NCBI GenBank assembly: GCA_964600365.1 | Contig: CAZRJG010000002.1 | Location: 36,180 to 100,179, forward strand | Direction of reading: 5' to 3' | From: an uncultured Acidimicrobiia bacterium | GTDB lineage: Bacteria; Actinomycetota; Acidimicrobiia; Spongiisociales; JAENVV01 | Length of the DNA stretch: 64,000 nucleotides | Shown: positions 5,744 through 52,535 of the stretch, piece by piece | Numbering within the stretch: position 1 is the stretch's first letter | How the letters are laid out: the number at the start of each line of letters is the position of its first letter | The notes under the pieces: generated by a model | Told to the model about the DNA's origin: nothing | Databases searched by the model: none | Seen by the model: the letters and a program-made list of their open reading frames with translations, nothing else | Program-made: the position numbers and the translations under genes

Positions 5744-6534
5744 CGCAGGAGCCTCACCAACGAGCCCCACAGGTCGGTGGTCCGCTCGAACGCCACCGCG
5801 CCGTCATCCACGAGCTTGCCGACGTGGGCGGCGACCGAGTGCGCGGCGATGGGGTGGAGTTCGGGGTCCACGTCGGCATACACGTCTTCGACGATCGCTC
5901 CGATGCTCCCGGCGCCCGACCGGAGGGCCGCGATGACCTGCTCCTCGCGCTCGAGCCTGTGGGAGATGTAGTGGTCGATCACCCCGGCGGGGTCGTCGAT
6001 CTCAGGACCGTGGCCAGGGAAAAGGCGCTCGAGCGTGAGGTCGCGCACCTTGCGGAGGCTGGCGAGGTAGGCGGTGAGGTCCTGCACCATCACCGTGGAG
6101 CCGCCCATGATGTGGTCCCCGGTGAACATCCACCGATCGAGCACGAAACACAGGTGGTCATCGGCGTGACCGGGCGTGTGGAGGACCTCGAGCGAGGAGC
6201 CGGCCACCTCCACGGTGCTGCCCTCCGAGAGCTGCTCGTCGGGCCGGAACTCGGCCGAGGGTGCGTAGCCCAGCGCCACCGTCCCCCAGTTCCGGGCCAG
6301 GGGGTTGGCCAGCGGCGCATGGTCGAGGTGGGTGTGGGTGACAACGACGGAGGCGACCCGCCTTCCGGCAACGACCCGATCGATCGCAGCAGCGTGCGCA
6401 TCGATCACGGGACCGGGGTCGAGCACGATCACCTCGTCGGCGTCGCCGATGACCCACGTATTCGTGCCGAGTCCTGTCCAGGGGCTGGGATTGGGGGCGA
6501 GGACCTTCTCGACCCTCACGCGTCGTGCTCCCAC
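5740..6534 (-). CDS. MBL-fold metallo-hydrolase (hydroxyacylglutathione hydrolase-like)
   Basis: VVTHTHLDHA (HxHxDH), HTPGHADDH; 264 aa. Confidence 0.75.
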   Translation of the reverse strand: MGARRVRVEKVLAPNPSPWTGLGTNTWVIGDADEVIVLDPGPVIDAHAAAIDRVVAGRRVASVVVTHTHLDHAPLANPLARNWGTVALGYAPSAEFRPDEQLSEGSTVEVAGSSLEVLHTPGHADDHLCFVLDRWMFTGDHIMGGSTVMVQDLTAYLASLRKVRDLTLERLFPGHGPEIDDPAGVIDHYISHRLEREEQVIAALRSGAGSIGAIVEDVYADVDPELHPIAAHSVAAHVGKLVDDGAVAFERTTDLWGSLVRLLR

Positions 6535-6995
6535 GCGTCGACGTCGATGACCGTGCCGGTCTCCCCCGACACGACGACCTGGCCAGCGAATCGCTTCGCG
6601 ACTCGCGCGTGGATGAGATCCCGCACTGCGGGGACGAGGAGTGCGAAGCCCACGACGTCAGTGAAGAACCCCGGGGAGATGAGCAGGGCGCCCGAGACGA
6701 GGATCGCCGCGCCGTGCGTGAGCTCGCGACCGGGCAGGGATCCCGAGGAGAGCCGTTCCCGGAAACGAGACATGACGGCGAGGCCGGCGCGGCGCACCAA
6801 CACGGATCCCGCAAGTGCGGTCCCGAGGGCGATCAGCAGTGCCGCCAGGAGCCCGATCTCGCGCTCGACCAGCACGAAGACCACGAGCTCCACCAGCGCA
6901 ACCGCTCCGAACACGCCGAAGAGGCTCACGACGGGCAGGATACCGGGGGCATGGATATGGGCCCGGGCGCCCCCGGGGTGTCCGCGAGCGCCCAC
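6516..6995 (-). CDS. fxsA: FxsA family inner-membrane protein
   Basis: The C-terminal part of a long antisense ORF matches FxsA: two N-terminal TM segments and the LLISPGFFTDVVGFALLVPAVR motif. Start assigned to a GTG at 6993-6995; start uncertain. Confidence 0.6.
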   Translation of the reverse strand: MGARGHPGGARAHIHAPGILPVVSLFGVFGAVALVELVVFVLVEREIGLLAALLIALGTALAGSVLVRRAGLAVMSRFRERLSSGSLPGRELTHGAAILVSGALLISPGFFTDVVGFALLVPAVRDLIHARVAKRFAGQVVVSGETGTVIDVDAWEHDA

Positions 6996-7022
6996 CCCCT
7001 CCGACCGAATACCCTCCGCTCG

Positions 7023-8333
7023 ATGTCCCTCCGCGACCTTCCTTCGGTCCATGAGCTCGCAGCGACGCTCGACGGCCTGCCAGAGCGTATCCGGATGCTC
7101 GTTGCCCGCGAGTCGATCGAGCATGCCCGCGAGGTCTTGCTCGCCGGCGGAGAGGCCGAGGCAACCGCCGATGCCCTCCGGATGGCTGCGTCCCTCCGTC
7201 GCAACCGACCCACCTCGATCCGGAACGCCACAGGGATCATCGTCCACACGAACCTCGGGCGCGTGCCGCTCCACCCGGACGCCGCGCGGGCGCTCGCCTC
7301 CGCGGCCGGTGGCTACGGCAACGCCGAGTTCGACCTCGGAAGTGGTCGGAGGGGTGGCAGGGGGGCGTGGCTGCGGGTCCTTCTCACCGAACTCACCGGC
7401 GCCGAGGATGCCCACGTCCTCGGGAACAACGCCGGGGCCCTCTTCGCCACGCTCCAAGTCCTTGCGGAAGGACGGGAGGTCCCCGTCTCGCGCGGTGAAC
7501 TCATCGAAATCGGGGGCTCCTACAGACTCCCCGAACTCATGGCGGCGAGCGGCGCGCACCTCGTCGAGGTGGGCACGACGAATAGGACCAGGCCCGCCGA
7601 CTACGCAGCGGCACTCGCCCCTTCCACTGCCCTGCTGCTCAAGGTGCATCCATCCAACTACCGCGTGGTCGGCTTCTCTGAGGAGGCCCCACTCGCTGAA
7701 CTCGCCGCGATCGCGCAAGGTGCCGGAATCCCCCTCGTCCACGACGCGGGATCCGGCCTGCTCGACGCGACGACGCCCTGGATTCCCGGCGGGCCACCTC
7801 CCTGGCTCCGCGGGGAGCCCGGCGTGCGACAGTCGGTCGAGGTCGCCGACCTCACCCTGTTCAGCGGGGACAAGCTCCTCGGAGGACCCCAGGCGGGCGT
7901 GATCGTCGGCTCCGGCGAGCTGGTGGAGTCCATCCGGAGCCATCCCCTCGCGAGAGCGATGCGGATCGATGGACCCACGATGGCCGCCCTCACGACCACC
8001 CTCGAGTACTACGCCGACGGCAGGGCCGACGAACTCCCGATGTGGCGCATGGCGCTGGCCACCGGCGAGGCACTCCGAGAGCGCTGCAGCGTGCTCGCAT
8101 CTGCGCTCGGGGGAACGGTCGAGGACGGATCGTCCCTCGTGGGAGGCGGAAGCACGCCCGGCATGGGGATCTCCTCCCCCGTGGTGCGCCTCGTGGGGCG
8201 CGGCGATGACCACGAGCAGCTCCTCGCCGCCGACCCGCCGATCCTCGCCCGGCGCGACGCTGGCGACCTCCTCATCGACCCAAGGACGCTCGACCCCGCC
8301 GAGGACGCAGACGTCATCGCTGCGCTCGCCTGA
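7023..8333 (+). CDS. selA: L-seryl-tRNA(Sec) selenium transferase
   Basis: Collinear with E. coli SelA from the N-terminal (S)LRDLPSV...HTNLGR motif through the PLP-lysine motif [17 protein letters not shown] and [11 protein letters not shown]. Start 7023; an alternative ATG lies at 6957. Confidence 0.85.
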
Positions 8334-10099
8334 TGCCGCTCATCGGCACCGCAGGACACGTCGACCACGGCAAGTCCACCCTCATCGCCGCCCTCACCGG
8401 ACGGGATCCGGACCGCTGGGCCGAGGAGAAGGAGCGAGGCCTGACGATCGACCTCGGCTTCGCATGGACTCACCTCGGCGACACCGAGGTGTCCTTCGTC
8501 GATGTGCCCGGCCACGAGCGGTTCCTCAAGAACATGCTCGCCGGGATCGAACCGATCGACGTCGCCCTGTTCGTCGTGGCAGCGGATGAGGGTTGGTCGG
8601 CCCAGTCGGAGGAACACCTCTCGGTCATCGACCTCCTCGGCATCTCCACGGGTGTCATCGCCCTCACAAAGGTTGATCGCGTCGACGACGACCTCGTGGA
8701 ACTCGCTTCCCTCGAGGCAGAGGAACGCCTCACCGGGACGTCGTTGGAAGGGGCACAGGTCGTGCCGGTCTCCGCTGTGCGGGGCGACGGAATGGACGCA
8801 TTGCGCAGCGCCCTCGCCGGGCTCGTCGCGCACGCGACCCCTCGGCCCGGCCCGCCGACCCTCTGGATCGACCGCTCCTTCTCGGTTGCGGGCGCCGGGA
8901 CCATCGTCACGGGCACCCTGTCGGGGGGATCGGTTGCGGTCGGCGACGACCTCATCCACCTCCCCACGGGGGATCGCACGCGAATCCGCACCATCCAGAG
9001 CCATGAGACGGACCTCGCCGAGGTCGGCCCGGGGCGACGGATCGCACTCGGGGTTCCCGACCTCTCCCGTGGGGCGGCGGTCCGCGGGTCCGTGCTCACG
9101 GTTCCCGGGGTGCGCACCACCTCGACCACGCTGCTGGTCGACCTCCACCCCGCCCGTGGCTTCGAGGACGCCACCTCGAGCCGCGGTGCGTTCCACGTCC
9201 ACCTGGGATCGGGCGACTGGCCGGCAACACTCCGGACCATCGATGAGAGGACCGCACTCGTGGACCTCGACACCCCGATCCCGGTGGTGGTCGGGGATCG
9301 CTGCATCATCCGCGATGCGGGGCGACGAGCCGTGGTGGCGGGAGGTGTCGTCCTCCATCCCTTCCCCGAGCGTCGTCGACGAGCCGCCGCCGCGGCCGCA
9401 GTGCGCCTCCGATCCACACGAGGGGGCACGCCGGATGACGTCGCCGACGCACTGCTCGAGACAGCCGGCGTCGCCGAGCTCGCCAGGCTCGCAACCGCGT
9501 CGGGGGGCGGCGCGCCTCGACGGGCGGTGGTCGCAGGCACGGTGGCCGCCACTCGGGAACAGTTGGAGGCCGCTGCCGGGCGGGCGGTCGCGGCGGCGCG
9601 GGCCCATCACCTGGAACACCCGCTCAGAGACGGCATCCCCAAGGCCGAGCTGGGTGCGGCATCGGGCCTCCCGCCCGAGTTCGTGGATGCCGTCATCGCC
9701 GCAAGGCCGGAGCTCGAAGCAGTCGGCGCAACGGTCGCCGCCGACGGGCATCGGCCCGGGCTCTCCCACGCCCACGAAGCCGCGTGGCGTGCAGCTCGCG
9801 GCCTCCTGTCCGACGCTGGCTTCTCGCCGCCCCGGGCCAGCGAGCTCCTCGCCGACGGCGAGCTCACACACGTGCTCACGCGGCGAGAACAGCTCGTCCA
9901 GGTCGGTGAGTTCCTGTACCTCCCGGACACGCTCGCCGAGGTGGAAGGGGTGCTTCGCACGCTCCCGTCACCGTTCACCGTCTCGGAGGCGAAGGACGCG
10001 CTGGGCATCTCGCGCAAGCACGCGGTGCCGCTCATGGAGTGGTGCGATGCGAACGGCGTGACCCGGAGGTCGGGCGACGGCCGGGCGGTGCGGGACTAG
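8333..10099 (+). CDS. selB: Selenocysteine-specific elongation factor
   Basis: GTPase motifs ([21 protein letters not shown]) followed by a long winged-helix C-terminal extension; 588 aa. The ATG overlaps the selA stop. Confidence 0.85.
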
Positions 10100-10914: not shown

Positions 10915-12738
10915 ATGCCCATACAGATCCAACTCCTCGGGCAACCCCGCATCTCCTGCGAGTCCAAGGAGGCGTATCGGTTCAGGGGCCGGAAGAGTTG
11001 GGCCCTGCTCGCCGTCCTCCTCCTGAGTGACAGAACCCGGACCCGTTCCGAACTCGCATCACTGCTGTTCTCCGAAGCGAACGACCCGCTCCGTGCACTT
11101 CGCTGGAGCCTTGCCGAGATCCGTCGCGCGCTGGGCGAATCGGGCTCCGTCGAGGGCGACCCGGTGGAGATCCGCCTCCCACCGGGATCGGTGGTCGACA
11201 TCGAGGTGCTGACACGGGGCTCGTGGCGGGACGCCGTGCGCCTCGAAGGACTGGGTGGCGACCTCCTCGACGGCTTCGCCATCCGGGATGCGCCCGCCTT
11301 CTCTTCCTGGCTGCTCTCCGAGCAACGGCACGTCGCCGCGGTGTCGGAGGCGATCCTCCACGAAGCGGCACTGGGGTCGATGTCCGCGGGCGACACGACC
11401 GACGCCATCCGGTTCGCGGTGCGTGCGACGACGCTGAATCCCTTCGACGAGAACCACCAGGCGCTCCTCCTCCGGCTGTACCGCCGAGCCGGCGATGAGG
11501 AGTCGGCAGCGCGCCAGTTCGCTGCGTACAAATCCCTCGTCGACCGGGAGTTGGGCACGACACCCGGGCCGGTCATCCATGCGGCGATGCGTGTCGAGCC
11601 AGCGGACCTCGCCGCCGAGCCGAGTCCCGCAGAGGTGGAGGCGATCATCGAGGCCGGCTCGGCCGCCGTGGCCGCGGGGGCCATCGAGTCGGGCGTCGAG
11701 TCCCTTCGGACCGCGGTACGCCTCGCCGATCGCGCGGGGGAACGGGGCGCTCGCATCCGGTCCCGTCTCGTCCTCGCCGAGGCACTCATCCACTCCCTCA
11801 GGGGCTTCGACGAGGACGGCGTCGCGGCACTCCACGAGATCGAGGCAATCGCCAAGGGCCCAGGCGACAACCCCTCGGTGGCCCGGGCGCGCGTCGAACT
11901 GGGCTACGTCGACTTCCTCCGGGCCCGCTACGACCGCTCCGTGAAGTGGCTCACCGATGCCCTTCGGACCGATGCCGACCTGCCAACCATCGCCAAGGCG
12001 TCGACGTACCTCGGGTGCGTCGAGAGCGACCGGGCCGACTACCCGACCGCCCGCGCGCTCCTGGAGCGGGGGCTGCGATCCGCGCAGGACGCGGGGAGCC
12101 TCCGACTCGAGGCGTTCGCAGCGTCGATGCTGGGGCGGATCGACCTGCTCCGGGGCGACCTCACCGCGGCGACACGGCATCTCGACCGAGCCACGGAGGT
12201 GGCCGAGCGGGACCACTGGCTCGCCTTCCTGCCGTGGCCCCAAGCGCTCCGCGGGGAGGTCGCGCTCACCCGTGGCGATCTCGACGAGGCCGAGGAGTCG
12301 CTGCACCATGCCTTCGCCCGTGCTTGTCAGCTCGGCGATCCCTGCTGGGAGGGACTTGCCTCGAGGGGCCTCGCCCTCGTCGCGGAACGCCGGGGTGACG
12401 TCGGGTCGGCATTCGACCTCCTCGTCGACGCGCGCAGGCGAAACGGCCGGTTCGCCGACCCCTACGTGTGGCTCGACGGCTACATCCTGGACACGCAGTG
12501 CACGCTGGGGCTTCGCCACGACCATCCCGACACGGCCAGGTGGGTCGAGGCGATGCAGGACCTCACGTCCCGGACCGACATGAAGGAACTCGTTGCACGA
12601 GCGCTGCATCACAGCGGTCGACTGGGGAACGCCGGCGACGGGGAGGCGGCCGCAATGGTCGCCTCGGAGATCGAGAGCCCCGTGCTCACCGGGCTGATCG
12701 GGAACGCGCCCGGGCGAGCATCGGGCCGGGCGGGCTAG
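10915..12738 (+). CDS. SARP/AfsR-family transcriptional regulator (OmpR-type wHTH + BTAD + TPR-like C-region)
   Basis: The N-terminal part (IQLLGQPRISCESKEAYRFRGRKSWALLAVLLL...) is an OmpR-like DNA-binding domain. It is followed by a BTAD (LYRRAGDEESAARQFAAYKSLVDRELGTTPG) and Ala/Leu-rich TPR-like repeats. Start taken at the internal Met 10915. Confidence 0.75.
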   Translation: MPIQIQLLGQPRISCESKEAYRFRGRKSWALLAVLLLSDRTRTRSELASLLFSEANDPLRALRWSLAEIRRALGESGSVEGDPVEIRLPPGSVVDIEVLTRGSWRDAVRLEGLGGDLLDGFAIRDAPAFSSWLLSEQRHVAAVSEAILHEAALGSMSAGDTTDAIRFAVRATTLNPFDENHQALLLRLYRRAGDEESAARQFAAYKSLVDRELGTTPGPVIHAAMRVEPADLAAEPSPAEVEAIIEAGSAAVAAGAIESGVESLRTAVRLADRAGERGARIRSRLVLAEALIHSLRGFDEDGVAALHEIEAIAKGPGDNPSVARARVELGYVDFLRARYDRSVKWLTDALRTDADLPTIAKASTYLGCVESDRADYPTARALLERGLRSAQDAGSLRLEAFAASMLGRIDLLRGDLTAATRHLDRATEVAERDHWLAFLPWPQALRGEVALTRGDLDEAEESLHHAFARACQLGDPCWEGLASRGLALVAERRGDVGSAFDLLVDARRRNGRFADPYVWLDGYILDTQCTLGLRHDHPDTARWVEAMQDLTSRTDMKELVARALHHSGRLGNAGDGEAAAMVASEIESPVLTGLIGNAPGRASGRAG

Positions 12739-13133
12739 CTGCACCCGGTACGCCGGTACACGACCATCCACGCACTCCCGAAGCGCTCCCGTTCCTCGTC
12801 GGTCGACCGGCGCAGGAACGGTCCCTCCCGCGGCGACCACCCCTCGGGAGTGGGTTCGAGCAGGTTCGCTTCGGTGCGACGGGAGTAGCTGCTCAACCGG
12901 TTCCCCAGGTAGGTGAGCACCGAGTAGCGGGTACCCGATCCGTACAGCCCGTAGCGCTCCACGAGCGCGTCCCATCGATCCGGGAACGCCGCCGCGAAGG
13001 CATCGGCGAACGCCAGGATCGAAAAGGAGGGGGCCATCAGCTCGATCGTCGCCTCCACCTCTTCGTCGGGGACGAGGGGGATCCTGTCTCCATCCGCTGC
13101 GTGGCCCGAGGCTACGCGCGCACGCGCCGCCAT
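12735..13133 (-). CDS. Hypothetical protein (132 aa)
   Basis: Coding-like composition. It is convergent with the SARP gene, and the two stop codons overlap inside a GCTAGC palindrome. No family recognised. Confidence 0.4.
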   Translation of the reverse strand: MAARARVASGHAADGDRIPLVPDEEVEATIELMAPSFSILAFADAFAAAFPDRWDALVERYGLYGSGTRYSVLTYLGNRLSSYSRRTEANLLEPTPEGWSPREGPFLRRSTDEERERFGSAWMVVYRRTGCS

Positions 13134-13163
13134 CGGGTTCCCGCCCCCGGCACCCGACCGACA

Positions 13164-13200
13164 CCAGGCAGGGCCGCCCCGTCGGGGCGGCCCTGCCTGG
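13164..13200. other. Very stable GC hairpin: 17-bp perfect stem CCAGGCAGGGCCGCCCC / GGGGCGGCCCTGCCTGG with a 3-nt loop
   Basis: Read directly. It abuts the att-like tRNA-fragment repeat. A related 9-bp-stem hairpin (GGGCCGCCC-CGAA-GGGCGGCCC) sits at 15235-15256 next to the intact tRNA-Pro. Confidence 0.6.
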
Positions 13201-13208
13201 TGTCTCTT

Positions 13209-13253
13209 GGTCGGGACGGTCGGATTTGAACCGACGACCTCAGCGTCCCGAAG
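13209..13253 (-). repeat. attR-like partial copy of the tRNA-Pro 3' half (anticodon loop to CCA end; 43/45 identical to 15273-15317)
   Basis: tggtcgggacggtcggatttgaaccgacgacctcagcgtcccgaa compared with tggtcgggacggtgggatttgaacccacgacctcagcgtcccgaa. The 5' half of a tRNA is absent, so this is not a second tRNA gene. Confidence 0.7.
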
Positions 13254-13346
13254 GCGCCCGCCATGGACTGAGGCGTACTCCTGCGGACCAAAACCCCAGG
13301 TCAGAGCAGTACGGTGACTGCCGCGAACTGCGGTGGACGCCTACGG

Positions 13347-13368
13347 ACGCGCGATGGACGCGCGATGG
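13347..13368. repeat. Tandem 11-mer GACGCGCGATG x2 (copy A), candidate integrase arm-type site
   Basis: An identical 22-mer recurs at 15194-15215, just inside the other end of the island. Confidence 0.4.
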
Positions 13369-13380
13369 AGCGGGGTTCGG

Positions 13381-13662
13381 TCAGGCGACCTCGAGGAACC
13401 GGCGGATCGCCTCACGGATGATCTCGCTGGTGGTGGTGTGCTCGGCTTCGGCGCGCGCTTCGATCGCAGCTCGCAGTTCGGGGTCGATGCGGACCGGCAC
13501 GACGTCGGCCGGACCCGATCCCATCGGAGGCCGACCCCGGCGCCGGGTCTTGAGGGCTTCGACGTCGTATTCGGTCTCGGCGACCTCGTTGGCGAGTGCG
13601 TCGATCTCCTCGTCGGTGAGGGTGCGGCCGCTGCGCGTGCGATGGGTCTTCGCTTCCGTCAT
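13381..13662 (-). CDS. BrnA-like antitoxin with C-terminal ribbon-helix-helix domain
   Basis: 93 aa. The C-terminal part (VVPVRIDPELRAAIEARAEAEHTTTSEIIREAIRRFL) is an RHH fold. The ATG overlaps the upstream toxin stop by 4 nt (ATGA). Confidence 0.65.
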   Translation of the reverse strand: MTEAKTHRTRSGRTLTDEEIDALANEVAETEYDVEALKTRRRGRPPMGSGPADVVPVRIDPELRAAIEARAEAEHTTTSEIIREAIRRFLEVA

Positions 13663-13922
13663 GGCATGTCCTCCCTGGTCTGCGGGAGCAAGTCGTAGAA
13701 GGTCGGTCGGAGCGGCATGGCGTGGATCACCAGATTGATGTCGTCGGCGAGTTCGAGCCAGATGATCTCCAGCAGATTGCCAGCTCGGTCGGGTCCGATG
13801 GCAAGGGCTTTGGGTGGGTCTGCGTCGGGGTCGAGGTCGATAATGGTGATGGCATGGTCGAGGGCGTGGAGGATGGCGGCATCGTCGATACCGTGCTTGC
13901 GGGCCGACCGGTGGATCTCCAC
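13659..13922 (-). CDS. BrnT-like (DUF497) toxin, toxin-first operon
   Basis: 87-aa core (VEIHRSARKHGIDDAAILHAL...AIGPDRAGNLLEIIWLEL...VIHAMPLRPT) resembles the BrnT/DUF497 layout KHG(I/V)..EA ... iG..r.G.lL.vv ... I(S/H)A(R/M). GTG start chosen just downstream of a palindromic operator. The 154-aa ORF extension upstream is judged spurious. Confidence 0.5.
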   Translation of the reverse strand: MEIHRSARKHGIDDAAILHALDHAITIIDLDPDADPPKALAIGPDRAGNLLEIIWLELADDINLVIHAMPLRPTFYDLLPQTREDMP

Positions 13923-13925
13923 ATC

Positions 13926-13945
13926 ACAATATTGTAATACGAAAG
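13926..13945. promoter_or_regulatory. Palindromic operator ACAATATTGT (10-bp perfect, imperfectly extended) overlapping a -10-like TACAAT, immediately 5' of the toxin start
   Basis: On the coding (minus) strand the sequence reads ...CGTATTACAATATTGTGATGTGG.... RHH antitoxins typically autoregulate at such palindromes. The spacing suggests a leaderless or near-leaderless transcript. Confidence 0.35.
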
Positions 13946-14085
13946 TCAGGTGAAGGGAACCGACTGTCTGACATCGCTGGGGGATACGCCTACGTGTCAG
14001 CGTGTCGCCTGCGGCCGATCCTGGAAGTGCCGTTCCCGGGTGCTTTGCGGAATGTGCGATATGGCACCGTATTTGGTGTTCTGGG

Positions 14086-14460
14086 CTACTCGGCGAGGTC
14101 GATGGTTCCGTCGCGTCGGCCACCTTCGGAGAAGGTTCGGAATCCGATCAGGGCCATGAGGAACCAGACGGCGCCGATGAGCAGTTCGAGGCCTAGCTCC
14201 CCGAACGCCCCAGACGAGATCCCGTTTGTGAGCAGGTCCCGCGTACCGAGGAGTCCGTGGTGGAGCGGAAGTAGGTTGGCGATCTGTTGCACCCATTCGG
14301 GAAAGACCTCGGTGGCGACGTTGACGCCGCCGATGGCGACGAGGGTGTAGAAGACGAAGTTGAAGAGGATGTTGCCGATGCGGAGGCGTCGGATGCTGAT
14401 CGCGGCGAGGAAGAGGCCGAGCCCGTAGGAGCCGAGAGCGACGGCGATGAGGCCGACCGG
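14086..14460 (-). pseudogene. C-terminal fragment (about 125 aa) of an ABC-2 type transporter permease, 5'-truncated
   Basis: The frame reads ...WWLLPVGLIAVALGSYGLGLFLAAISIRRLRIGNILFNFVFYTLVAIGGVNVATEVFPEWVQQIANLLPLHHGLLGTRDLL...GAVWFLMALIGF and then stops. No N-terminal part is present; the sequence upstream switches to the integrase fragment at about 14461. Confidence 0.5.
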
Positions 14461-14462
14461 CA

Positions 14463-15194
14463 GAAGCCACCAGTGGCCGGCTCAACGCCGCCGTGCTCGA
14501 CGATCGGATCGCCCGGTCACCCTGTCGGGGCATTCGGCTGCCGGCCATCCAACCGACCGACCGGCCCGTGCTCACGGCTTCCCAGTTGGCGGATCTCACT
14601 GAGGCGCTGGGACCCGACTACGGGCTGATGGTGCATCTCGGGGCGGTGCTCGGGCTGCGGTGGGGTGAATGCGCCGGACTCCGCATCGGTCGGATCGACT
14701 TCGACCGAGCGACCGTCGCCATCACCGAACAGGTCACCCGGGGCGCCGGAGGCCGCTCGGTCCTCGGGCCACCCAAGTCCCAGGCCGCCCGCAGGACCCT
14801 GGCCGCACCGCCGGTGCTCACAGATCTCATCGCCGAGCACCTCGAGCGTCGGGGGCTCACAACCAGAGACACCCATGCCTTCCTGTTCGCCGGCTTGGAC
14901 GGTGGACACCTCGACTACTCGAACTGGCTGCACCGAATCTGGTATCCCGCCCGCCAACAAGCCGGTGTCGAGTGGGCCCAATTCCACGACCTCCGCCGAG
15001 CAAACGCCACCGGACTCGTCCTCGAAGGCATCGACCTCAAGACCGCCCAAACCCGACTCGGGCACACCGACCCGAGGCTGACACTCGGCATCTACGCCCA
15101 AGCCAGCACCGAAGCCGACCGCCACGCCGCCGAACGACTCGGCGACCGATTCCTCCCGAAACGGGACCACGACAACGGAAGAGGCCTTATCTGA
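14463..15194 (+). pseudogene. Tyrosine recombinase (phage integrase) catalytic domain only, N-terminal arm/core-binding domains missing
   Basis: R...HxLRH...Y-type catalytic region (LGLRWGECAGLRIGRID...HDLRRANATGLV...RLGHTDPRLTLGIYAQ). The frame opens at about 14463 without a plausible start or N-domain. The stop lies immediately before tandem 11-mer copy B. Confidence 0.6.
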
Positions 15195-15215
15195 CGCGCG
15201 ATGGACGCGCGATGG
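15194..15215. repeat. Tandem 11-mer GACGCGCGATG x2 (copy B)
   Basis: Identical to 13347-13368. Confidence 0.4.
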
Positions 15216-15272
15216 AAACCCCTCCCAAACCAGCGGGCCGCCCCGAAGGGCGGCCCTGACCTGGGGTTTCTC

Positions 15273-15349
15273 TGGTCGGGACGGTGGGATTTGAACCCAC
15301 GACCTCAGCGTCCCGAACGCTGCGCGCTGCCAAACTGCGCCACGTCCCG
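15273..15349 (-). tRNA. tRNA-Pro (anticodon CGG)
   Basis: Manual fold: acceptor CGGGACG/CGTCCCG, D-arm GCGC-AGTTTGGCA-GCGC, anticodon stem CAGCG/CGCTG with loop TTCGGGA (U33, CGG, G37), T-arm GTGGG-TTCAAAT-CCCAC, discriminator A, encoded CCA. Confidence 0.85.
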
Positions 15350-15394
15350 ATCGGGTGCGTGAGGATAGGACGCGCGACAGCCCAAACGGAACCG

Positions 15395-16651
15395 TCAGGC
15401 GGGTCGCACGACACGGATCGTGGCGATCCGGTTCCGATCCATGTGGTCCACGACGAGCTCGATGTCACCGATCGCCACCTGATCACCCGGCTCGGGGATC
15501 GACCCGTGCTCGGCGAGGAAGAGGCCGGCGAGCGTGGCGTACGGACCGTCGGGCAGCACCTCACCAATTGCCTCAGCGACCGCGTCGAAGGGGATGCGTC
15601 CATCGGCGAGCCACAGGTCCTCCCCTACGGCCACGATGCTCGGGCTCCCGGGGTCGAACTCATCACGGAGGTCACCGATCAACTCGCCGACGAGGTCCTT
15701 GGGGGTGATGAGGCCGTCGAACCCACCGTGCTCGTCCAGCACGATCGCGTACCCGATCCGCCGAACGCGGAAATCGCGGAGTGCATCGAGGAGCGCCGCC
15801 GACTCGGGGACGAACTGGGGGGTGCGAACGAGTGAGCGCAACTCCGTGGAGGACACGTCGGGGCCGAGCCGGAGGACGTCCTTGACGTAGAGCACACCCA
15901 CGAGGTCATCGAGCGATCCCTCCTCGGCCAGGACAGGGAACCGGGAGTGTCCCGTCTCGGCCACGACCTGCCTGATCGCCTCGACATCGAGTGGGAGGCG
16001 AAGGGACACGACGTCGACGCGGGGGGTCATGACCTCCCGCACGGGACGATCGGCGGCTGCGAAGAGCGCATCGATGATCTGGTGGGTGTGCTCCCCGATC
16101 CCTCCCACCGCGAGGCCCATCGCCGCGAGGGCCCGGATGTCGTCCTCGGTCACCTCCGGTGCATCCCTACGGATCCCCCACCGCGTCGGGCGGAGGAGCC
16201 CGCGGCTCACCCCCATGAACACACGGGAGACCGGGGTCAGGATGCGTCGGAGCCAGTACAGGGGGATCGAGGCGAACAGCCCATACGACTCCGGGTCGCG
16301 GGAGGCCATGGTCTTGGGCGTGATCTCACCGAGGACGAGGATCACCGCCGTCATCCCGAACGTGGCAAGGATTGGGCCGAGTGGCTCCCCGACGAGTTCC
16401 GTGGCGAGCACCGTCGCGATCGTTGCGGCGAGGATGTTCACGAAGTTGTTCGCTACGAGGATCGTGCCGATCGTCCCCTCGGCGTCGTCCGACAACGCTG
16501 CGAGCCGCTCGCCGCGCCGGCCATTGCTGCGCAACTGGTCGAGACGCTCGCGAGGGATCGCGACGACTGCGGTCTCCGAACCCGAGAGGAACCCCGAGGC
16601 AATGAAGCAGAGCCCGAGGACGGCGACGAGCCCGAGTTGGGTGGGGGTCAC
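15395..16651 (-). CDS. CNNM/HlyC-CorC family transporter (DUF21 TM domain + CBS pair + CorC_HlyC)
   Basis: N-terminal 4-TM DUF21, central CBS pair, C-terminal transporter-associated domain; GTG start. Confidence 0.85.
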   Translation of the reverse strand: MTPTQLGLVAVLGLCFIASGFLSGSETAVVAIPRERLDQLRSNGRRGERLAALSDDAEGTIGTILVANNFVNILAATIATVLATELVGEPLGPILATFGMTAVILVLGEITPKTMASRDPESYGLFASIPLYWLRRILTPVSRVFMGVSRGLLRPTRWGIRRDAPEVTEDDIRALAAMGLAVGGIGEHTHQIIDALFAAADRPVREVMTPRVDVVSLRLPLDVEAIRQVVAETGHSRFPVLAEEGSLDDLVGVLYVKDVLRLGPDVSSTELRSLVRTPQFVPESAALLDALRDFRVRRIGYAIVLDEHGGFDGLITPKDLVGELIGDLRDEFDPGSPSIVAVGEDLWLADGRIPFDAVAEAIGEVLPDGPYATLAGLFLAEHGSIPEPGDQVAIGDIELVVDHMDRNRIATIRVVRPA

Positions 16652-16652
16652 G

Positions 16653-17021
16653 TCAGACCGACGACCCCGCGGGGATCGCGGCGCGGAGCTCCTGGGCAGT
16701 GAACGGCTTCGTCACCCATGCGTCGGCACCCGACCGATCGGCGAGGAAGCGATCAGCGGCACGATCGAGCAGGAGGACGAGGGGCGCCTCGGCGAGCTGG
16801 TTGGCAGCGATGGCATCCTTGCAGGCCCGCACCACGGCCATACCCCCCATGGAGCCGACCTGGAGGTCGATGACGATCGCCTCGGGAGCCACTTCTGCGG
16901 CTCGGCTCACGGCGGCGCGCGGATCGGACTCGGTCACGATCGAGCGGCGCGGCCCTGAGAGGGCCGCCTCGACATCGTTTCGCACCCAGTCGTCATCGGC
17001 GATGAGGAGCACAGTGGCCAT
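16653..17021 (-). CDS. Single-domain response regulator (CheY-like receiver only)
   Basis: LLIADDD...VIDLQVGSMGG...WVTKPF receiver motifs; 122 aa. The stop abuts the start of the CNNM gene. The longer 539-aa ORF upstream is antisense to purF and judged spurious. Confidence 0.75.
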   Translation of the reverse strand: MATVLLIADDDWVRNDVEAALSGPRRSIVTESDPRAAVSRAAEVAPEAIVIDLQVGSMGGMAVVRACKDAIAANQLAEAPLVLLLDRAADRFLADRSGADAWVTKPFTAQELRAAIPAGSSV

Positions 17022-17108: not shown

Positions 17109-18536
17109 ATGCGCACTACCCTCATAGAGGTGATCGACACGGATGGGCGCCCCGGGGAGGCTTGTGGCGTCTTCGGCGCCTGGGCCCCGGGCGGACAGGC
17201 AAGCCTCCTCACCTACTTCGGGCTCTTCGCCCTCCAACACCGCGGCCAGGAGAGCGCAGGCATCTGCGCCTCGAACGGAGAGACCGCAACGGTCTTCAAG
17301 GAGCTCGGCCTCGTTCCGCAGGTCTTCGACGAGCAGGTGCTTGCAGGCCTCGAGGGGCACATGGCGATCGGCCACACTCGCTACTCCACGACCGGCTCCC
17401 CCAAGTGGGCGAACGCCCAGCCGGTGTTCCGCCAGGTCGGCAACCGCTCCCTCGCACTCGGCCACAACGGGAACCTCACCAACACCGTCGACCTCGCCGC
17501 CGAGGCGGGGCTCGCAGACGTCACCGACACCGAGGTGCTCATCGAGCTCCTTGCCCGGAAGGCAGACCAGTTCGGACCCGAGTTCGAGCTGGACCAGGCG
17601 CTCGCAGGCATCCTCTCCCGTGTGCAGGGTGCGTTCTCGCTCGTCGTCATGGACCAACGCACCCTCGTGGGCGTGCGCGATCCGAACGGGTTCCGTCCCC
17701 TCTGTCTCGGCTCCCTCGAGGACGGCGGGTGGGTGCTCGCCTCCGAGACGGCGGCACTCGACATCGTCGGGGCAACCTTCGTCCGTGAGTTGGGACCCGG
17801 CGAGATGGTCGTCATCGACGAGAAGGGCGTCCGCAGCCTCTGCTTCGCCGAACCGACCCCTCGCCTCTGCGTCTTCGAGTTCGTGTACTTCGCCCGCCCC
17901 GACTCGCGGCTCCACGGCCGGGACATCCATGGCAGCCGTCAGGAGATGGGACGGATCCTCGCCGCCGAGCAACCCGTCGATGCCGACGTCGTGGTACCCG
18001 TCCCCGAGTCGGGCATCCCTGCCGCCCAAGGGTTCTCCGCCGCCTCGGGCATCCCCTACGCAGACGGGCTCGTGAAGAACCGCTACGTCGGGCGCACGTT
18101 CATCGAGCCCACGCAGTTGCTCAGGGACCGCGGCATTCGCGTCAAACTCAACCCGATCCGTTCGACGCTCGAGGGAAAGCGGGTCGTCCTCGTCGACGAC
18201 TCGATCGTCCGGGGGTCCACCACCCAGAAACTCGTCGCCATGGTCCGCCAGGCCGGAGCCGCCGAGGTGCACCTCCGCATCTCGTCACCGCCCTACAAGC
18301 ACCCCTGCTTCTACGGGATGGACACGTCCGACGCATCCAAGCTGCTCGCAGCGCGCATGGACGTCGACGAGATCGCAGCGCATATCGACGCCGACACCCT
18401 CGGCTACCTCAGCCTGTCCGGCCTCCTCGACGCAACCGGTTCGGCCGAGGAGGGATTCTGCACCGCGTGCCTCTCGGGGGTGTATCCCACCGAAATCCCC
18501 GACGGGCTCACCAAGCACAGCCTCGAACTCGCATGA
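17109..18536 (+). CDS. purF: Amidophosphoribosyltransferase
   Basis: N-terminal MCGVFG-type Ntn motif (ACGVFGAW), PRTase motif (VVLVDDSIVRGST), C-terminal Fe-S cysteines. Confidence 0.9.
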   Translation: MRTTLIEVIDTDGRPGEACGVFGAWAPGGQASLLTYFGLFALQHRGQESAGICASNGETATVFKELGLVPQVFDEQVLAGLEGHMAIGHTRYSTTGSPKWANAQPVFRQVGNRSLALGHNGNLTNTVDLAAEAGLADVTDTEVLIELLARKADQFGPEFELDQALAGILSRVQGAFSLVVMDQRTLVGVRDPNGFRPLCLGSLEDGGWVLASETAALDIVGATFVRELGPGEMVVIDEKGVRSLCFAEPTPRLCVFEFVYFARPDSRLHGRDIHGSRQEMGRILAAEQPVDADVVVPVPESGIPAAQGFSAASGIPYADGLVKNRYVGRTFIEPTQLLRDRGIRVKLNPIRSTLEGKRVVLVDDSIVRGSTTQKLVAMVRQAGAAEVHLRISSPPYKHPCFYGMDTSDASKLLAARMDVDEIAAHIDADTLGYLSLSGLLDATGSAEEGFCTACLSGVYPTEIPDGLTKHSLELA

Positions 18537-19543
18537 CGTCGAAGGCGTACCAGAGCGCCGGTGTGGACACCGCTGCGGCGGACCGCCTCGTCGAGCGCAT
18601 CGGACCCGCCGTCACCGCCACCTGGGGTGACCGCGTCGTCGGCGGATTCGGCGGGTTCGCCGCTGGCATCAGGATCCCCGATGGGTACCGGGACCCGGTC
18701 CTCATGCTCTCCACCGACGGCGTGGGGACGAAACTCGAACTGGCCCGGGCGCTGCAGCGATTCGACACCGTGGGCCACGACCTCGTTGCGATGTGCGTCG
18801 ATGACCTCGCCGCCGTCGGTGCCGAACCGGTGGCCTTCGTGGACTACGTGGCCGTCGGCGCGCTCGACGGTAACCGGGAGGCCGCACTCGTGTCCGGCAT
18901 CGCCGATGCCTGCGCGATCGCAGGCTGTGCCCTCGTCGGTGGGGAGACGGCCGAGCATCCGGGGGTCATGGGTGCCGACCAGTTCGACCTCGCCGGCACC
19001 GCGCTCGGCGTCGTCGAGGCGGACGGCCGACTCCACCCCGGCCTCGTGCAGGACGGGGACGTGCTCATCGGCGTCGATTCGCCCAACCTGCGCTCGAACG
19101 GTTTCTCCCTCGTGCGCCGGATCCTGGAGTCATCGGGCGACGACCCCCACATCGACGGCGTCCCGGCGCTCGAGGTGCTCCTCGAACCCTCCGTGATCTA
19201 CGCGCCGGCTGCGGTGCGAGCCGCCCGCCTCGACGGGGTGCACGGCCTCGTGCATGTCACGGGCGGTGGCCTTCCGGGCAACGTTCCGCGTGTACTCCCC
19301 GATGGCCTCGGGGCAACGATCGATCGGGGTGCATGGACGCCGCCGACGGTCTTCTCCTGGCTCGCGTCCGAGGGCCACCTTTCGGAAACGGACCTCCTCG
19401 GCGCTTTCAACATGGGCATCGGCTTCGTCGCAGTCGCGACCCAGGCAGCGGCCGACGAGGTCGCCGCGGTTTTCGCAGGCGAGGGACATCCTGCACGGGT
19501 GATCGGGCGGGTCGGGACGGGTAGCTCGCTCACGATCTCCTGA
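18533..19543 (+). CDS. purM: Phosphoribosylformylglycinamidine cyclo-ligase
   Basis: AIR synthase motifs (DGVGTKL, GGETAE). The ATG overlaps the purF stop. Confidence 0.9.
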   Translation: MTSKAYQSAGVDTAAADRLVERIGPAVTATWGDRVVGGFGGFAAGIRIPDGYRDPVLMLSTDGVGTKLELARALQRFDTVGHDLVAMCVDDLAAVGAEPVAFVDYVAVGALDGNREAALVSGIADACAIAGCALVGGETAEHPGVMGADQFDLAGTALGVVEADGRLHPGLVQDGDVLIGVDSPNLRSNGFSLVRRILESSGDDPHIDGVPALEVLLEPSVIYAPAAVRAARLDGVHGLVHVTGGGLPGNVPRVLPDGLGATIDRGAWTPPTVFSWLASEGHLSETDLLGAFNMGIGFVAVATQAAADEVAAVFAGEGHPARVIGRVGTGSSLTIS

Positions 19544-28663: not shown

Positions 28664-29044
28664 TTACTCCTCGCGGGGTTCGAGGCTCAGGCTCGCGGAG
28701 TTCACGCAGAAGCGGAGTCCCGTGGGCGCCGGGCCATCGGAGAACACGTGGCCGAGGTGGGCGTCGCAGTTGGCGCACGTGATCTCGGTGCGGACCATGC
28801 CGTGGGACGTGTCGGTCTTCTCGGTGATGCGCCCATCATCCACCGCCTCGAAGAACGACGGCCATCCCGAGCCCGAGTCATACTTCGACTTCGAGTCGAA
28901 GAGGTCGACCCCGCACACGACACAGCGGTACATGCCGGGGCGCTTCTCGTTCCAGTACTCCCCCGAGAAGGGCGGCTCGGTGCCGCACTGCTGCGTCACG
29001 TGCCACTGCTCGTCGGTGAGTTTCGCTTTGAGGTCGTCGGTCAT
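28664..29044 (-). CDS. msrB: Peptide-methionine (R)-S-oxide reductase
   Basis: Two CxxC zinc motifs (CGTEPPF...CVVCG / [12 protein letters not shown]) and the catalytic RFCVNS. Confidence 0.85.
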
Positions 29045-34881: not shown

Positions 34882-35484
34882 GTGACCGGTCCCCGAACGC
34901 AGCCTCCCCGCTGGCTCATCCCGGTCGCCGTCGGCGCCATCGTCTCGATCCTGTGGGGACTCGGCGCGCTGATCCTGTCCGGCCGGGACGACACCGCGGA
35001 ACGACCGAGCCGGATCGCCCTCGGACGCACCGAGGACGGCGCCGCGATCAGAGTCCTCGTCGAGGGCTGCGACACCCTTTCAGTGCTCCGCGTGTCGGTC
35101 CTCCTCGGTCCCGAGCCCGTCTGGGAGTTGCGGGGGACGGCGCCACCCAGCCGTACTGCGTTCGTTGTGGGGCAGTCCGCCGACCCACTCGTGGTCACGA
35201 CCCCCCTCGGCGAACCGCTCGGACGCGACGTGCGCTACACGGTCGAAGTCGAGTCGGATCGCGTGGAGGCAGCCGGATTCACGCCCCGCCAGGTGCCCCC
35301 CGTTGGCGTTCTCCACGACGGCGTGGAACGCACGACCGACGGGTTCGTCCGCTTGGTCGACGACGCATGGTGCCGACCGGAGACAGAGCTGCCCCTCGTG
35401 GGATCACTCGTCGCCCAGCTCGTCATCGTGTTCGCCGGGGCGGCGTTCGCCGTCGTCGCTGCCGGGCTCCTCGGGGACGACTGA
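34882..35484 (+). CDS. Hypothetical membrane protein (N- and C-terminal TM segments)
   Basis: Coding-like composition, TM helix at both ends. The GTG start is uncertain. Confidence 0.4.
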   Translation: MTGPRTQPPRWLIPVAVGAIVSILWGLGALILSGRDDTAERPSRIALGRTEDGAAIRVLVEGCDTLSVLRVSVLLGPEPVWELRGTAPPSRTAFVVGQSADPLVVTTPLGEPLGRDVRYTVEVESDRVEAAGFTPRQVPPVGVLHDGVERTTDGFVRLVDDAWCRPETELPLVGSLVAQLVIVFAGAAFAVVAAGLLGDD

Positions 35485-45484: not shown

Positions 45485-46129
45485 TCACAGGACCCTGCTG
45501 GCGACCTCCACGACTTCCGACGGCTCGGCACGAACCCGATGGTTGAGGTCGATGAAGTCGTACCGGATCATCCCCTCCGTGTCGATCACGTAGGTCGCCG
45601 GGAGCGGGAGCAGCCACCGTTCGTTCCCATTCATCGCAGCGAGGTCACGATCGTGGTTGCGGTAGTACTCGACCTGTTCGGGGACCATCTCGTACACGAG
45701 GTTGAACGACGCGGCCACCTCGCTCCCCACGTCGGAGAGGACGGGAAAGGTGAGCTCAGCCTCGTCCACGAGCGCGAGCGACACATCGGGGAGGTTCGGC
45801 GAAACCGCGACAAGGGTCACTCCTGCGGCTTCCGCCGACTCGAGCGCCCTCTGCAGCGCCCGGAGTTCCAAGTTGCAGAAGGGGCACCACGACCCGCGGT
45901 AGAAGGAGAGCACGACCGGTCCCGCGACGAGGAGGTCGGAGAGCGCGACCGGACTGCCATGCGCATCCGGCAAGGTGAACATCGGCGCGGAATCGCCTGC
46001 GCGGAGGGCCTTCTCGAGGAGGTCGGATGCCGCCAGCGCCTCGGCCTGGGCTCGGTACACGGCCGCTCGTTCGGCGTCGAACGACTTCGCCCCAGCGGCA
46101 CGCGCCGCCAGCTCATCCCTCAATGACAA
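45485..46129 (-). CDS. Peroxiredoxin-like / AhpC-TSA family redoxin
   Basis: Thioredoxin fold with WCPFC. Confidence 0.75.
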   Translation of the reverse strand: MSLRDELAARAAGAKSFDAERAAVYRAQAEALAASDLLEKALRAGDSAPMFTLPDAHGSPVALSDLLVAGPVVLSFYRGSWCPFCNLELRALQRALESAEAAGVTLVAVSPNLPDVSLALVDEAELTFPVLSDVGSEVAASFNLVYEMVPEQVEYYRNHDRDLAAMNGNERWLLPLPATYVIDTEGMIRYDFIDLNHRVRAEPSEVVEVASRVL

Positions 46130-46226: not shown

Positions 46227-46272
46227 CCGCGTCCTTCGGGTGTAGTCCAACGGTGGAACGGGAGCTTTCCCA
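46227..46272 (+). pseudogene. Degenerate tRNA-Gly-like fragment (5' half only)
   Basis: CGGGTGTAGTCCAACGGTGGAACGGGAGCTTTCCCAACCCG is about 75% identical to positions 2-45 of the bona fide tRNA-Gly(CCC) at 52462. It cannot be folded into a cloverleaf. Confidence 0.35.
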
Positions 46273-46433
46273 ACCCGCGTTCTTGTTCGTTCTGGGCTTG
46301 CTTGGAAGGCATTCCGGAGTTCGTGCCCGTCAGGTTGCCCAACAGCCAACAGCAGTGACGGCCGCCCACCCGATTCCTCCCCAATCGGTGTCCTCGTGCC
46401 GCCACATGCCCGTGAGGGAGCGACCGGCGAGCG

Positions 46434-52461: not shown

Positions 52462-52535
52462 GCGGGTGTAGTTCAATGGTAGAACACGAGCTTCCCAAGC
52501 TTGAAACGCGGGTTCGATTCCCGTCACCCGCTCCA
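52462..52535 (+). tRNA. tRNA-Gly (anticodon CCC)
   Basis: Manual fold: acceptor GCGGGTG/CACCCGC, D-arm GTTC-AATGGTA-GAAC, anticodon stem CGAGC/GCTTG with loop TTCCCAA, T-arm GCGGG-TTCGATT-CCCGT, encoded CCA. Confidence 0.9.

What the first reader, a model, noticed from the sequence alone, without database searches (positions are those of the whole stretch)
7023..10099. selA-selB selenocysteine-insertion operon with no tRNA-Sec, selD or selenoprotein gene in 64 kb
SelA (PLP Lys in [13 protein letters not shown]) and SelB (EF-Tu-like GTPase plus a long winged-helix tail) are translationally coupled (ATGA overlap). Selenocysteine decoding is patchy in Actinomycetota, so its presence is a useful lineage and physiology marker.

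None of the peroxiredoxin, MsrB or other redox genes in this window shows an in-frame TGA. The cognate selenoproteins, typically formate dehydrogenase, selC and selD must lie elsewhere. The small-tRNA search here found only Pro and Gly tRNAs; the 46.2 kb tRNA-like fragment is Gly-derived, not Sec.
Basis: partly seen in the sequence, partly recalled or inferred. Interest (0 to 1): 0.5.

Follow-up and report, generated by a model that had tools for sequence, protein, structure and literature searches.

The report
Ordinary selA-selB selenocysteine operon
The window carries an intact, conserved pair of genes for making and delivering selenocysteine (selA and selB) in an uncultured Acidimicrobiia bacterium; the other parts of the system are simply encoded elsewhere, as is usual in this class, so the finding is correct but ordinary.

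Summary
selA is at 7023-8333 (+) and selB at 8333-10099 (+). Both are full-length orthologues. They score above the curated cut-offs of the NCBIfam equivalog models and match solved SelA and SelB structures end to end. The PLP lysine, the selenophosphate-site arginines, the GTPase motifs and the C-terminal winged helices are all present.

One detail needs correcting. The gene junction is TGATG, a one-base overlap, not ATGA.

The 64 kb window has no tRNA-Sec, no selD and no gene with a credible in-frame TGA. The search method does find tRNA-Sec in two other Acidimicrobiia loci, so this negative is meaningful. MsrB, the peroxiredoxin-like protein, ErpA and CopZ/CopA all use Cys.

The source is an Acidimicrobiia lineage known only from metagenomes (best SelA match 93%). 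The block erpA-mrp-M23-MBL-fxsA | selA-selB | whiB ... tRNA-Pro is conserved across the class. Among 34 relatives with full 10-kb flanks, none has selD nearby, and only a Bacillota genome has selC nearby.

selA and selB are under purifying selection (dN/dS 0.05-0.22), similar to their neighbours, so they are not relics. Whether this genome has selC, selD and selenoproteins cannot be tested from the window.

Interest is low: this is a known system in its usual arrangement.

The parts
7023..8333 (+). selA, L-seryl-tRNA(Sec) selenium transferase (selenocysteine synthase), 436 aa
   Evidence: TIGR00474 at 398 bits against a cut-off of 268. Pfam SelA E=5e-102. Full-length match to Aquifex SelA 3w1h, E=1e-86. 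N-terminus conserved in relatives.
7872..7874 (+). Codon of Lys284, the PLP-binding lysine in [13 protein letters not shown]
   Evidence: Aligns with Lys285 of 3w1h. Arg80, Arg311 and Arg314 align with Arg86, Arg312 and Arg315 of 3w1h in the same alignment. The roles of these residues are from my own knowledge of the Aquifex SelA structure papers.
8331..8335 (+). selA stop / selB start junction, TGATG (one shared base)
   Evidence: Read directly from the sequence. The same one-base overlap appears in relatives L002 (11311/11311) and L004 (11323/11323). Translational coupling is inferred, not shown.
8333..10099 (+). selB, selenocysteine-specific elongation factor, 588 aa
   Evidence: TIGR00475 at 314 bits against a cut-off of 242. 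Pfam GTP_EFTU, GTP_EFTU_D2, Beta-barrel_SelB and SelB-wing_2/3. Match to E. coli SelB 5lzb over residues 3-588, E=1e-67. G motifs [13 protein letters not shown] and TKVD are visible in the translation.
6936..7022 (.). Divergent intergenic region between fxsA (-) and selA (+); presumed to hold the selAB promoter
   Evidence: This is inference from gene layout only. The sigma-70 consensus scan found nothing here, and no RNA family matched.
10096..10099 (.). CTAG where the selB stop (TAG, +) and the whiB stop (TAG, -) overlap; marks the 3' end of the operon
   Evidence: Read from the sequence. The same convergent 4-nt overlap of selB and whiB occurs in L002 and L001.

Best explanation
This is a functional two-gene selAB operon of an uncultured Acidimicrobiia bacterium.

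**Mechanism.** SelA is a PLP enzyme. It converts Ser-tRNA(Sec) to Sec-tRNA(Sec) using selenophosphate. SelB is an EF-Tu-like GTPase with a C-terminal winged-helix domain that binds SECIS hairpins. It delivers Sec-tRNA(Sec) to in-frame UGA codons.

**Expression.** The two genes are transcribed together from the region between fxsA and selA. They are probably translationally coupled through the TGATG junction.

**Missing parts.** The other components of the trait are selC, selD and the selenoprotein genes. They are encoded elsewhere on the chromosome, which is the normal layout in this class.

**Shown versus inferred.** Shown here: gene identity, intactness, conserved catalytic residues, conserved synteny, purifying selection, and absence of the other components from the window. 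Inferred: co-transcription, translational coupling, and the existence of selC, selD and selenoproteins elsewhere.
For: - **Identity.** Both proteins score above the curated equivalog cut-offs and have the full domain sets.
- **Structure matches.** They match solved SelA and SelB end to end. The PLP Lys and three active-site Arg residues are conserved.
- **Relatives.** Intact orthologues at 93%, 76% and 66% identity sit in the same gene context. The apparent break of selB in the 93% relative is only a run of N in a scaffold.
- **Selection.** dN/dS is 0.13-0.20 for selA and 0.05-0.22 for selB. Neighbouring housekeeping genes give 0.03-0.19.
- **Synteny.** The block erpA-mrp-M23-MBL-fxsA|selAB|whiB is conserved in about 30-40 of 84 loci, down to 44% SelA identity.
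- **Complete machinery in the class.** Two Acidimicrobiia (L023, L078) have selAB together with tRNA-Sec (Rfam 72 and 67 bits) and a true SelD (TIGR00476, 366 and 374 bits).
- **Unlinked layout is usual.** Of 34 relatives with full 10-kb flanks, none has selD nearby and only a Bacillota genome has selC nearby.
- **Literature.** Dispersed selA, selC and selD are also reported for the Acidimicrobiia order Actinomarinales (preprint 10.64898/2026.04.03.716425).
Against: - No selC, selD or selenoprotein gene has been seen for this genome or for its closest relatives. The lineage is covered from 20 kb upstream of selA (relatives L205, L206, L208) to 54 kb downstream (the window), and none is found.
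- An attempt to place a SelD on the same contigs as the related SelA genes failed.
- No promoter-like site or ribosome-binding site was identified for the operon.
- dN/dS shows constraint but does not say which function is constrained.
Confidence: 0.9

Rival explanations
1. Orphan or relic selAB. The genome has lost selC and/or selD and makes no selenoproteins. selA and selB are decaying, or are kept for some other role, as reported for the lone selA of Helicobacter pylori.
For: No selC, selD or selenoprotein gene lies within -20 kb to +54 kb of selA in this lineage. The literature records an orphan selA in H. pylori (PMC4607533, cited in PMC5029168).
Against: Both genes are intact in the window and in relatives at 93%, 76% and 66% identity. 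dN/dS of 0.05-0.22 is like the neighbouring housekeeping genes. The SECIS-binding winged helices of SelB are retained, and they have no known use outside Sec decoding. Unlinked selC and selD are the rule in the class, so their absence from the window carries no weight.
Confidence: 0.05
2. A selenoprotein gene or a divergent tRNA-Sec is present in the window but escaped detection. Candidates would be a short, unannotated selenoprotein of the kind predicted in Actinomarina, or a non-canonical tRNA.
For: The Actinomarina preprint reports small uncharacterised selenoproteins. About 15% of them fall outside called genes. Bacterial SECIS elements are poorly modelled in Rfam, and my screen relies on codon-usage scores.
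Against: - Scans of every in-frame TGA in all six frames gave only antisense-frame artefacts or ordinary stop codons between adjacent genes (MFS / secreted protein at 37026; thrB / LLM oxidoreductase at 41926).
- Relaxed scans of all gaps of 120 nt or more found only a response-regulator stop codon and an ABC-2 permease fragment.
- Rfam at E<=5 and an Acidimicrobiia tRNA-Sec T-arm pattern with 3 mismatches found no tRNA-Sec. The same Rfam model finds it at 67-72 bits in L023 and L078.
Confidence: 0.05

Closest known systems
Bacterial SelA (selenocysteine synthase): Aquifex aeolicus 3W1H, E. coli 8UZW
   Same: Full-length alignment, residues 3-424 against 5-435 of 3w1h. It includes the N-terminal domain, the PLP lysine in [11 protein letters not shown], and Arg80/311/314 matching Arg86/312/315.
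   Different: It is slightly shorter (436 aa against 452-463 aa). It has a short insertion near residues 250-265 ([16 protein letters not shown]) relative to Aquifex. Nothing suggests a change of function.
Bacterial SelB: E. coli 5LZB, Aquifex aeolicus 4ZU9
   Same: EF-Tu-like domains I-III plus the C-terminal winged-helix domain. It aligns over residues 3-588 against 2-607 of E. coli SelB. GTPase motifs are intact.
   Different: The middle winged helices are divergent. Only SelB-wing_2 (24 bits) and SelB-wing_3 (56 bits) pass the Pfam thresholds.
E. coli selAB operon
   Same: Same gene order, with selA then selB co-oriented and abutting. selC and selD are at separate loci, as in E. coli (own knowledge).
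   Different: The flanks differ. Here they are fxsA (divergent) and whiB (convergent, with stop codons overlapping in CTAG). No SECIS-like leader was detected upstream of selA.
Sec machinery of Actinomarinales (class Acidimicrobiia), preprint 10.64898/2026.04.03.716425
   Same: Same class. selA, selC and selD sit at separate chromosomal positions.
   Different: This lineage has 68% GC and is not Actinomarina. Its SelB scores above the curated cut-off, whereas Actinomarina SelB is reported as divergent and below the KofamScan threshold.
Clustered selA-selB-selC/selD loci in other Acidimicrobiia (L023, L078)
   Same: Orthologous selAB at 47-53% SelA identity.
   Different: There, tRNA-Sec and selD lie immediately downstream of selB. 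In the window that position is occupied by whiB.

Membership tests
SelA (L-seryl-tRNA(Sec) selenium transferase, TIGR00474/PF03841) | Whole-protein score above the curated equivalog cut-off | tested here: met
   398.1 bits against a cut-off of 267.9, covering 17-453 of 455 profile positions.
SelA (L-seryl-tRNA(Sec) selenium transferase, TIGR00474/PF03841) | PLP-binding lysine and selenophosphate-site arginines | tested here: met
   Lys284, Arg80, Arg311 and Arg314 align with Lys285, Arg86, Arg312 and Arg315 of 3w1h. The residue roles are from my own knowledge of the structure papers.
SelA (L-seryl-tRNA(Sec) selenium transferase, TIGR00474/PF03841) | N-terminal domain that recognises tRNA(Sec) | tested here: met
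   The alignment to full-length 3w1h starts at query residue 3 / chain residue 5. The N-terminally deleted construct 3w1i matches only from residue 62.
SelA (L-seryl-tRNA(Sec) selenium transferase, TIGR00474/PF03841) | Ser-tRNA(Sec) to Sec-tRNA(Sec) conversion activity; decameric assembly | not testable with these tools
   Needs biochemistry.
SelB (selenocysteine-specific elongation factor, TIGR00475) | Whole-protein score above the curated equivalog cut-off | tested here: met
   314.4 bits against a cut-off of 242.25, covering 2-581 of 581 profile positions.
SelB (selenocysteine-specific elongation factor, TIGR00475) | Intact GTPase motifs G1, G3 and G4 | tested here: met
   [13 protein letters not shown] and TKVD are present in the translation. 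Pfam GTP_EFTU scores 114 bits.
SelB (selenocysteine-specific elongation factor, TIGR00475) | C-terminal winged-helix extension that binds SECIS | tested here: met
   SelB-wing_3 at 56 bits and SelB-wing_2 at 24 bits. Alignment to E. coli SelB runs through residue 588/607. Actual SECIS binding was not tested.
Complete bacterial Sec-decoding trait (selA, selB, selC, selD and at least one selenoprotein) | tRNA-Sec gene (selC) | tested here: inconclusive
   Absent from the window and from 20 kb upstream of selA in relatives. The positive control works. The rest of the genome is not available.
Complete bacterial Sec-decoding trait (selA, selB, selC, selD and at least one selenoprotein) | Selenophosphate synthetase (selD) | tested here: inconclusive
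   No tblastn hit in the window. The only AIRS-fold protein is PurM (TIGR00878, 347 bits). The rest of the genome is not available.
Complete bacterial Sec-decoding trait (selA, selB, selC, selD and at least one selenoprotein) | At least one gene with an in-frame UGA followed by a SECIS hairpin | tested here: inconclusive
   None in the window. The rest of the genome is not available.

The most novel reading that the evidence does not exclude
This Acidimicrobiia lineage might keep selA and selB under purifying selection in a core housekeeping block while lacking selC and/or selD. That would mean either a Sec-independent role for a SelA/SelB pair, or a non-canonical tRNA or selenium donor.
Probability: 0.04. 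Interest if true: 0.6.

Novelty: already known. Interest (0 to 1): 0.12.

Why it matters
It marks this uncultured Acidimicrobiia lineage as a likely selenocysteine user. That tells annotators to expect UGA-interrupted genes elsewhere in the genome and not to call them pseudogenes.

One small extra point came from the comparison. In this class selAB sits in a deeply conserved housekeeping block, next to fxsA and whiB and near tRNA-Pro. selC and selD are usually unlinked. The trait therefore looks ancestral and vertically inherited in Acidimicrobiia rather than sporadically acquired.

None of this changes what is known about how selenocysteine decoding works.

Tried and rejected
1. **Looking up the window's own SelA.** Its exact sequence is not on record. 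The genome is also not among the GTDB species representatives; the best match there is 67%.
2. **Apparent selB truncation in the 93% relative L001.** This looked like pseudogenisation. It is a run of N in a scaffold, so it was rejected.
3. **Matching SelD to SelA by contig length.** I searched for SelD homologues whose longest-contig length equals that of a contig carrying a related SelA. That would have shown an unlinked selD in a relative. No length matched.
4. **selC just left of the window.**
   - Two metagenome contigs (L166, L169) carry the same glnA2-glnA block with tRNA-Sec about 3.5 kb beyond glnA2. In L166 the block runs on to fxsA-selA. This suggested selC might lie just outside the window's left end.
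   - I walked 20 kb upstream of selA in the 76% and 66% relatives (L205, L206, L208). No tRNA is there, so the idea is rejected for this lineage.
5. **PurM as a mis-read SelD.** Both share the AIRS fold. It scores as TIGR00878 purM, lies next to purF, and has no SelD hit. Rejected.
6. **In-frame TGA candidates.**
   - Sites at 1267, 3227, 15833, 19132, 36211, 59504 and 61851 are antisense-frame artefacts of high-GC genes.
   - Sites at 37026 and 41926 are ordinary stops between adjacent, unrelated genes.
7. **Rfam COG2908 RNA hit inside selA (8024-8060).** It scores 23.7 bits against a gathering score of 58.7, so it is chance.
8. **P0245 look-up.** It was not on record.
Full report
**Observation**

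The window has 68% GC. Two co-oriented ORFs occupy 7023-8333 and 8333-10099 on the + strand.

The first ORF is SelA.
- It scores 398 bits on the NCBIfam equivalog TIGR00474 (cut-off 268) and E=5e-102 on Pfam SelA.
- The longest ORF in that frame starts at 6525. The stretch 6525-7022 is really the antisense of an fxsA gene on the minus strand (6516-6935; FxsA family at 100 bits).
- The ATG at 7023 gives an N-terminus, [12 protein letters not shown], that is conserved in relatives.

The second ORF is SelB.
- It scores 314 bits on TIGR00475 (cut-off 242).
- Pfam finds GTP_EFTU, GTP_EFTU_D2, Beta-barrel_SelB, SelB-wing_2 and SelB-wing_3.

One detail needs correcting. The junction reads gccTGATGccg. 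The selA stop and the selB start share a single A, so the overlap is TGATG and not ATGA. The same one-base overlap is seen in two relatives.

**Integrity of the two proteins**

SelA aligns with the full-length Aquifex aeolicus SelA structure (3w1h) from residue 3 to 424, E=1e-86.
- Lys284 in [13 protein letters not shown] aligns with the PLP lysine Lys285.
- Arg80, Arg311 and Arg314 align with Arg86, Arg312 and Arg315. Their roles come from my own knowledge of the structure papers.
- The N-terminal domain is present.

SelB aligns with E. coli SelB (5lzb) over residues 3-588 against 2-607, E=1e-67. The G1, G3 and G4 motifs ([17 protein letters not shown]) are visible in the translation.

**What is absent from the window**

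No tRNA-Sec:
- ARAGORN finds only tRNA-Pro(CGG) at 15273-15349 (-) and tRNA-Gly(CCC) at 52462-52535 (+).
- Rfam finds the same two tRNAs at gathering thresholds. At E<=5 it adds only chance-level hits and no tRNA-Sec.
- As a positive control, the same Rfam search finds tRNA-Sec (RF01852) at 72 and 67 bits in two other Acidimicrobiia loci, L023 and L078.
- A 20-nt T-arm pattern shared by those two tRNA-Sec genes, searched with up to 3 mismatches, matches only the tRNA-Gly in the window.

No SelD:
- tblastn with SelD detects true SelD genes in L023 and L078. These score 366 and 374 bits on TIGR00476. It detects nothing in the window.
- The only AIRS-fold protein in the window is at 18533-19543. 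It is PurM (TIGR00878, 347 bits) and lies next to purF.

No selenoprotein gene:
- I trained a codon-usage score on long ORFs and examined every in-frame TGA in all six frames.
- Sites with coding signal on both sides were of two kinds. Seven were antisense-frame artefacts. Two were ordinary stops between adjacent, unrelated genes: MFS transporter / secreted protein at 37026, and homoserine-kinase-like / luciferase-like oxidoreductase at 41926.
- Relaxed scans of all gaps of 120 nt or more turned up only the stop codon of a small response-regulator gene and an ABC-2 permease fragment.
- Proteins with Sec-containing relatives in other organisms use Cys here:
  - MsrB (28664-29044, -), with RFCVNS
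  - the AhpC/TSA-like protein (45485-46123, -), with CPFC
  - ErpA
  - CopZ and CopA, with CxxC
- Pfam annotation of the remaining genes shows ordinary housekeeping, transport and regulatory functions. There is no formate dehydrogenase, glycine reductase, SelU or YqeB/YqeC.

**Source organism and context**

The closest SelA sequences are unnamed metagenome proteins at 93%, 80%, 77%, 76% and 66% identity. More distant hits are annotated as SelA of Acidimicrobiia MAGs. The genome is not among the GTDB representatives; the best match there is 67%.

Loci from the 93%, 76% and 66% relatives are collinear with the window: glnA, glnR-like, cysK, erpA, mrp, M23 peptidase, MBL, fxsA | selA-selB | whiB ... 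corC, purF, purM. An apparent truncation of selB in the 93% relative is only a run of N in a scaffold.

Across 84 loci this block, plus a nearby tRNA-Pro(CGG), is kept in about 30-40 of them, down to about 44% SelA identity. These include Ilumatobacteraceae, Acidimicrobiaceae and sponge-associated families.

**Where selC and selD are in relatives**

- Among 80 GTDB loci, tRNA-Sec lies within 10 kb of selA in four. Two of these are Acidimicrobiia (L023, L078), one is a Phycisphaeraceae MAG and one a Bacillota MAG.
- selD lies within 10 kb in two, L023 and L078.
- Of the 34 loci with full 10-kb flanks on both sides, none has selD. Only the Bacillota locus has selC.
- A preprint on Actinomarinales, an order of the same class, likewise reports selA, selC and selD at separate chromosomal positions (10.64898/2026.04.03.716425).
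- The layout in the window is therefore the usual one for the class.

**A lead that was followed and rejected**

A metagenome scan with a tRNA-Sec pattern returned 120 loci, of which ARAGORN called tRNA-Sec in 118. Two of them, L166 and L169, carry the same divergent glnA2-glnA pair as the window's relatives. In L166 the block runs on through erpA-mrp-MBL-fxsA-selA. In both contigs tRNA-Sec lies about 3.5 kb beyond glnA2.

The window begins inside glnA, so selC might have been just outside its left end. I found the lineage-specific upstream gene of the 76% relative in the protein collection and used it to fetch 20 kb upstream of selA in the 76% and 66% relatives. No tRNA of any kind is there.

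Putting the relatives and the window together, this lineage has no selC or selD from -20 kb to +54 kb around selA.

**Relic or functional?**

| Gene | Compared with | dN/dS | Note |
|---|---|---|---|
| selA | 93% relative | 0.13 | dS 0.29, not saturated |
| selA | 76% relative | 0.20 | |
| selB | 93% relative | 0.05 | first 146 codons only |
| selB | 76% relative | 0.22 | |
| MBL, CorC, Mrp, CysK, ErpA, WhiB, PurM | 93% relative (MBL, CorC, WhiB) and 76% relative (all seven) | 0.03-0.19 | neighbouring genes |

Both genes are intact in every close relative examined, and SelB keeps its SECIS-binding winged helices. This argues strongly against decaying relics. It does not prove that selC, selD and selenoproteins exist in this genome, which only the rest of the genome can show.

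An attempt to place a SelD on the same contig as a related SelA, by matching contig lengths, found nothing.

**Mechanism**

This section rests on established knowledge of the bacterial Sec pathway.
- SelA uses PLP to convert the seryl moiety on tRNA(Sec) to an aminoacrylyl intermediate. It then adds selenium from selenophosphate, which SelD makes.
- SelB·GTP binds Sec-tRNA(Sec). Through its C-terminal winged helices it also binds the SECIS hairpin just 3' of an in-frame UGA, and so delivers Sec to the ribosome.
- Co-transcription and termination-reinitiation coupling at TGATG are inferred from the gene layout. No ribosome-binding site is evident just upstream of the selB start, which is compatible with coupling.
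- No promoter-like site was detected upstream of selA.
- At the 3' end, the stop codons of selB and of the convergent whiB overlap in the palindrome CTAG. This arrangement is conserved in relatives.

**Verdict**

The finding is accurate and its interpretation is sound. What it describes is a well-known system in the arrangement that is normal for its class. Orthologues are already annotated as SelA in public Acidimicrobiia MAGs. Interest is low.

The only non-trivial residual possibility is a genome that truly lacks selC or selD while keeping constrained selAB. I put this at about 4%.

Noticed in passing
window 13150-15350: A roughly 2.1-kb degraded integrative island sits at tRNA-Pro(CGG). 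A partial copy of the tRNA 3' part with its flanking hairpin lies at about 13165-13260. The intact tRNA is at 15273-15349 (-). Between them are an RHH (CopG-like) gene with a small partner gene (13381-13922, -), an ABC-2 permease fragment (about 14086-14400, -) and a truncated phage-type integrase (14493-15194, +). The 93% relative L001 lacks the island: L001 7305-7467 corresponds to window 12596-15224.
   Followed up: partly
window 46230-46275: A 5' half of tRNA-Gly(CCC), including 6 nt of its 5' flank, lies in the gap between the peroxiredoxin-like gene and a LuxR-type response regulator. It is 6.2 kb from the intact tRNA-Gly at 52462-52535. It might be a remnant of a rearrangement or an integration. 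It is not Sec-related.
   Followed up: partly
window 10096-10099; L002 13071-13074; L001 4803-4806: selB and the convergent whiB-family gene end on overlapping stop codons within the palindrome CTAG. The 4-nt overlap is conserved in relatives with 76-93% SelA identity. No intrinsic terminator lies between the genes.
   Followed up: partly
L166 749-842 and 4306-13205; L169 5752-5847 and 9360-11922: Two metagenome contigs (44% and 65% GC) share the divergent glnA2-glnA pair. In L166 the block continues through erpA-mrp-MBL-fxsA-selA. Both have tRNA-Sec about 3.5 kb beyond glnA2. selC is therefore loosely linked to selAB (about 11.5 kb) in some Acidimicrobiia, but not in the window's closest relatives.
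   Followed up: yes
window 16651-17020 (-): A small stand-alone response-regulator receiver gene (about 122 aa) lies between corC and purF. My codon-score gene caller missed it. It is annotated in relative L002 (14848-15216, Response_reg).
   Followed up: no
L023 7452-9959 and 14704-17181: In the Acidimicrobiia MAG whose selAB, selC and selD are clustered, the cluster has two kinds of neighbours. One is a dimethylglycine/sarcosine-dehydrogenase-type gene (DAO + GCV_T). The others are a B12-binding corrinoid protein and a pterin-binding methyltransferase. No in-frame TGA was looked for there.
   Followed up: no
window 35485-36987 (-), 34882-35484 (+), 49220-49816 (+), 62932-63483 (+), 12735-13133 (-): Several well-scoring ORFs have no Pfam hit at E<=1e-4. 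They include a 500-aa Asp/Leu/Gly-rich predicted secreted protein that follows an MFS transporter gene in the same reading frame.
   Followed up: no
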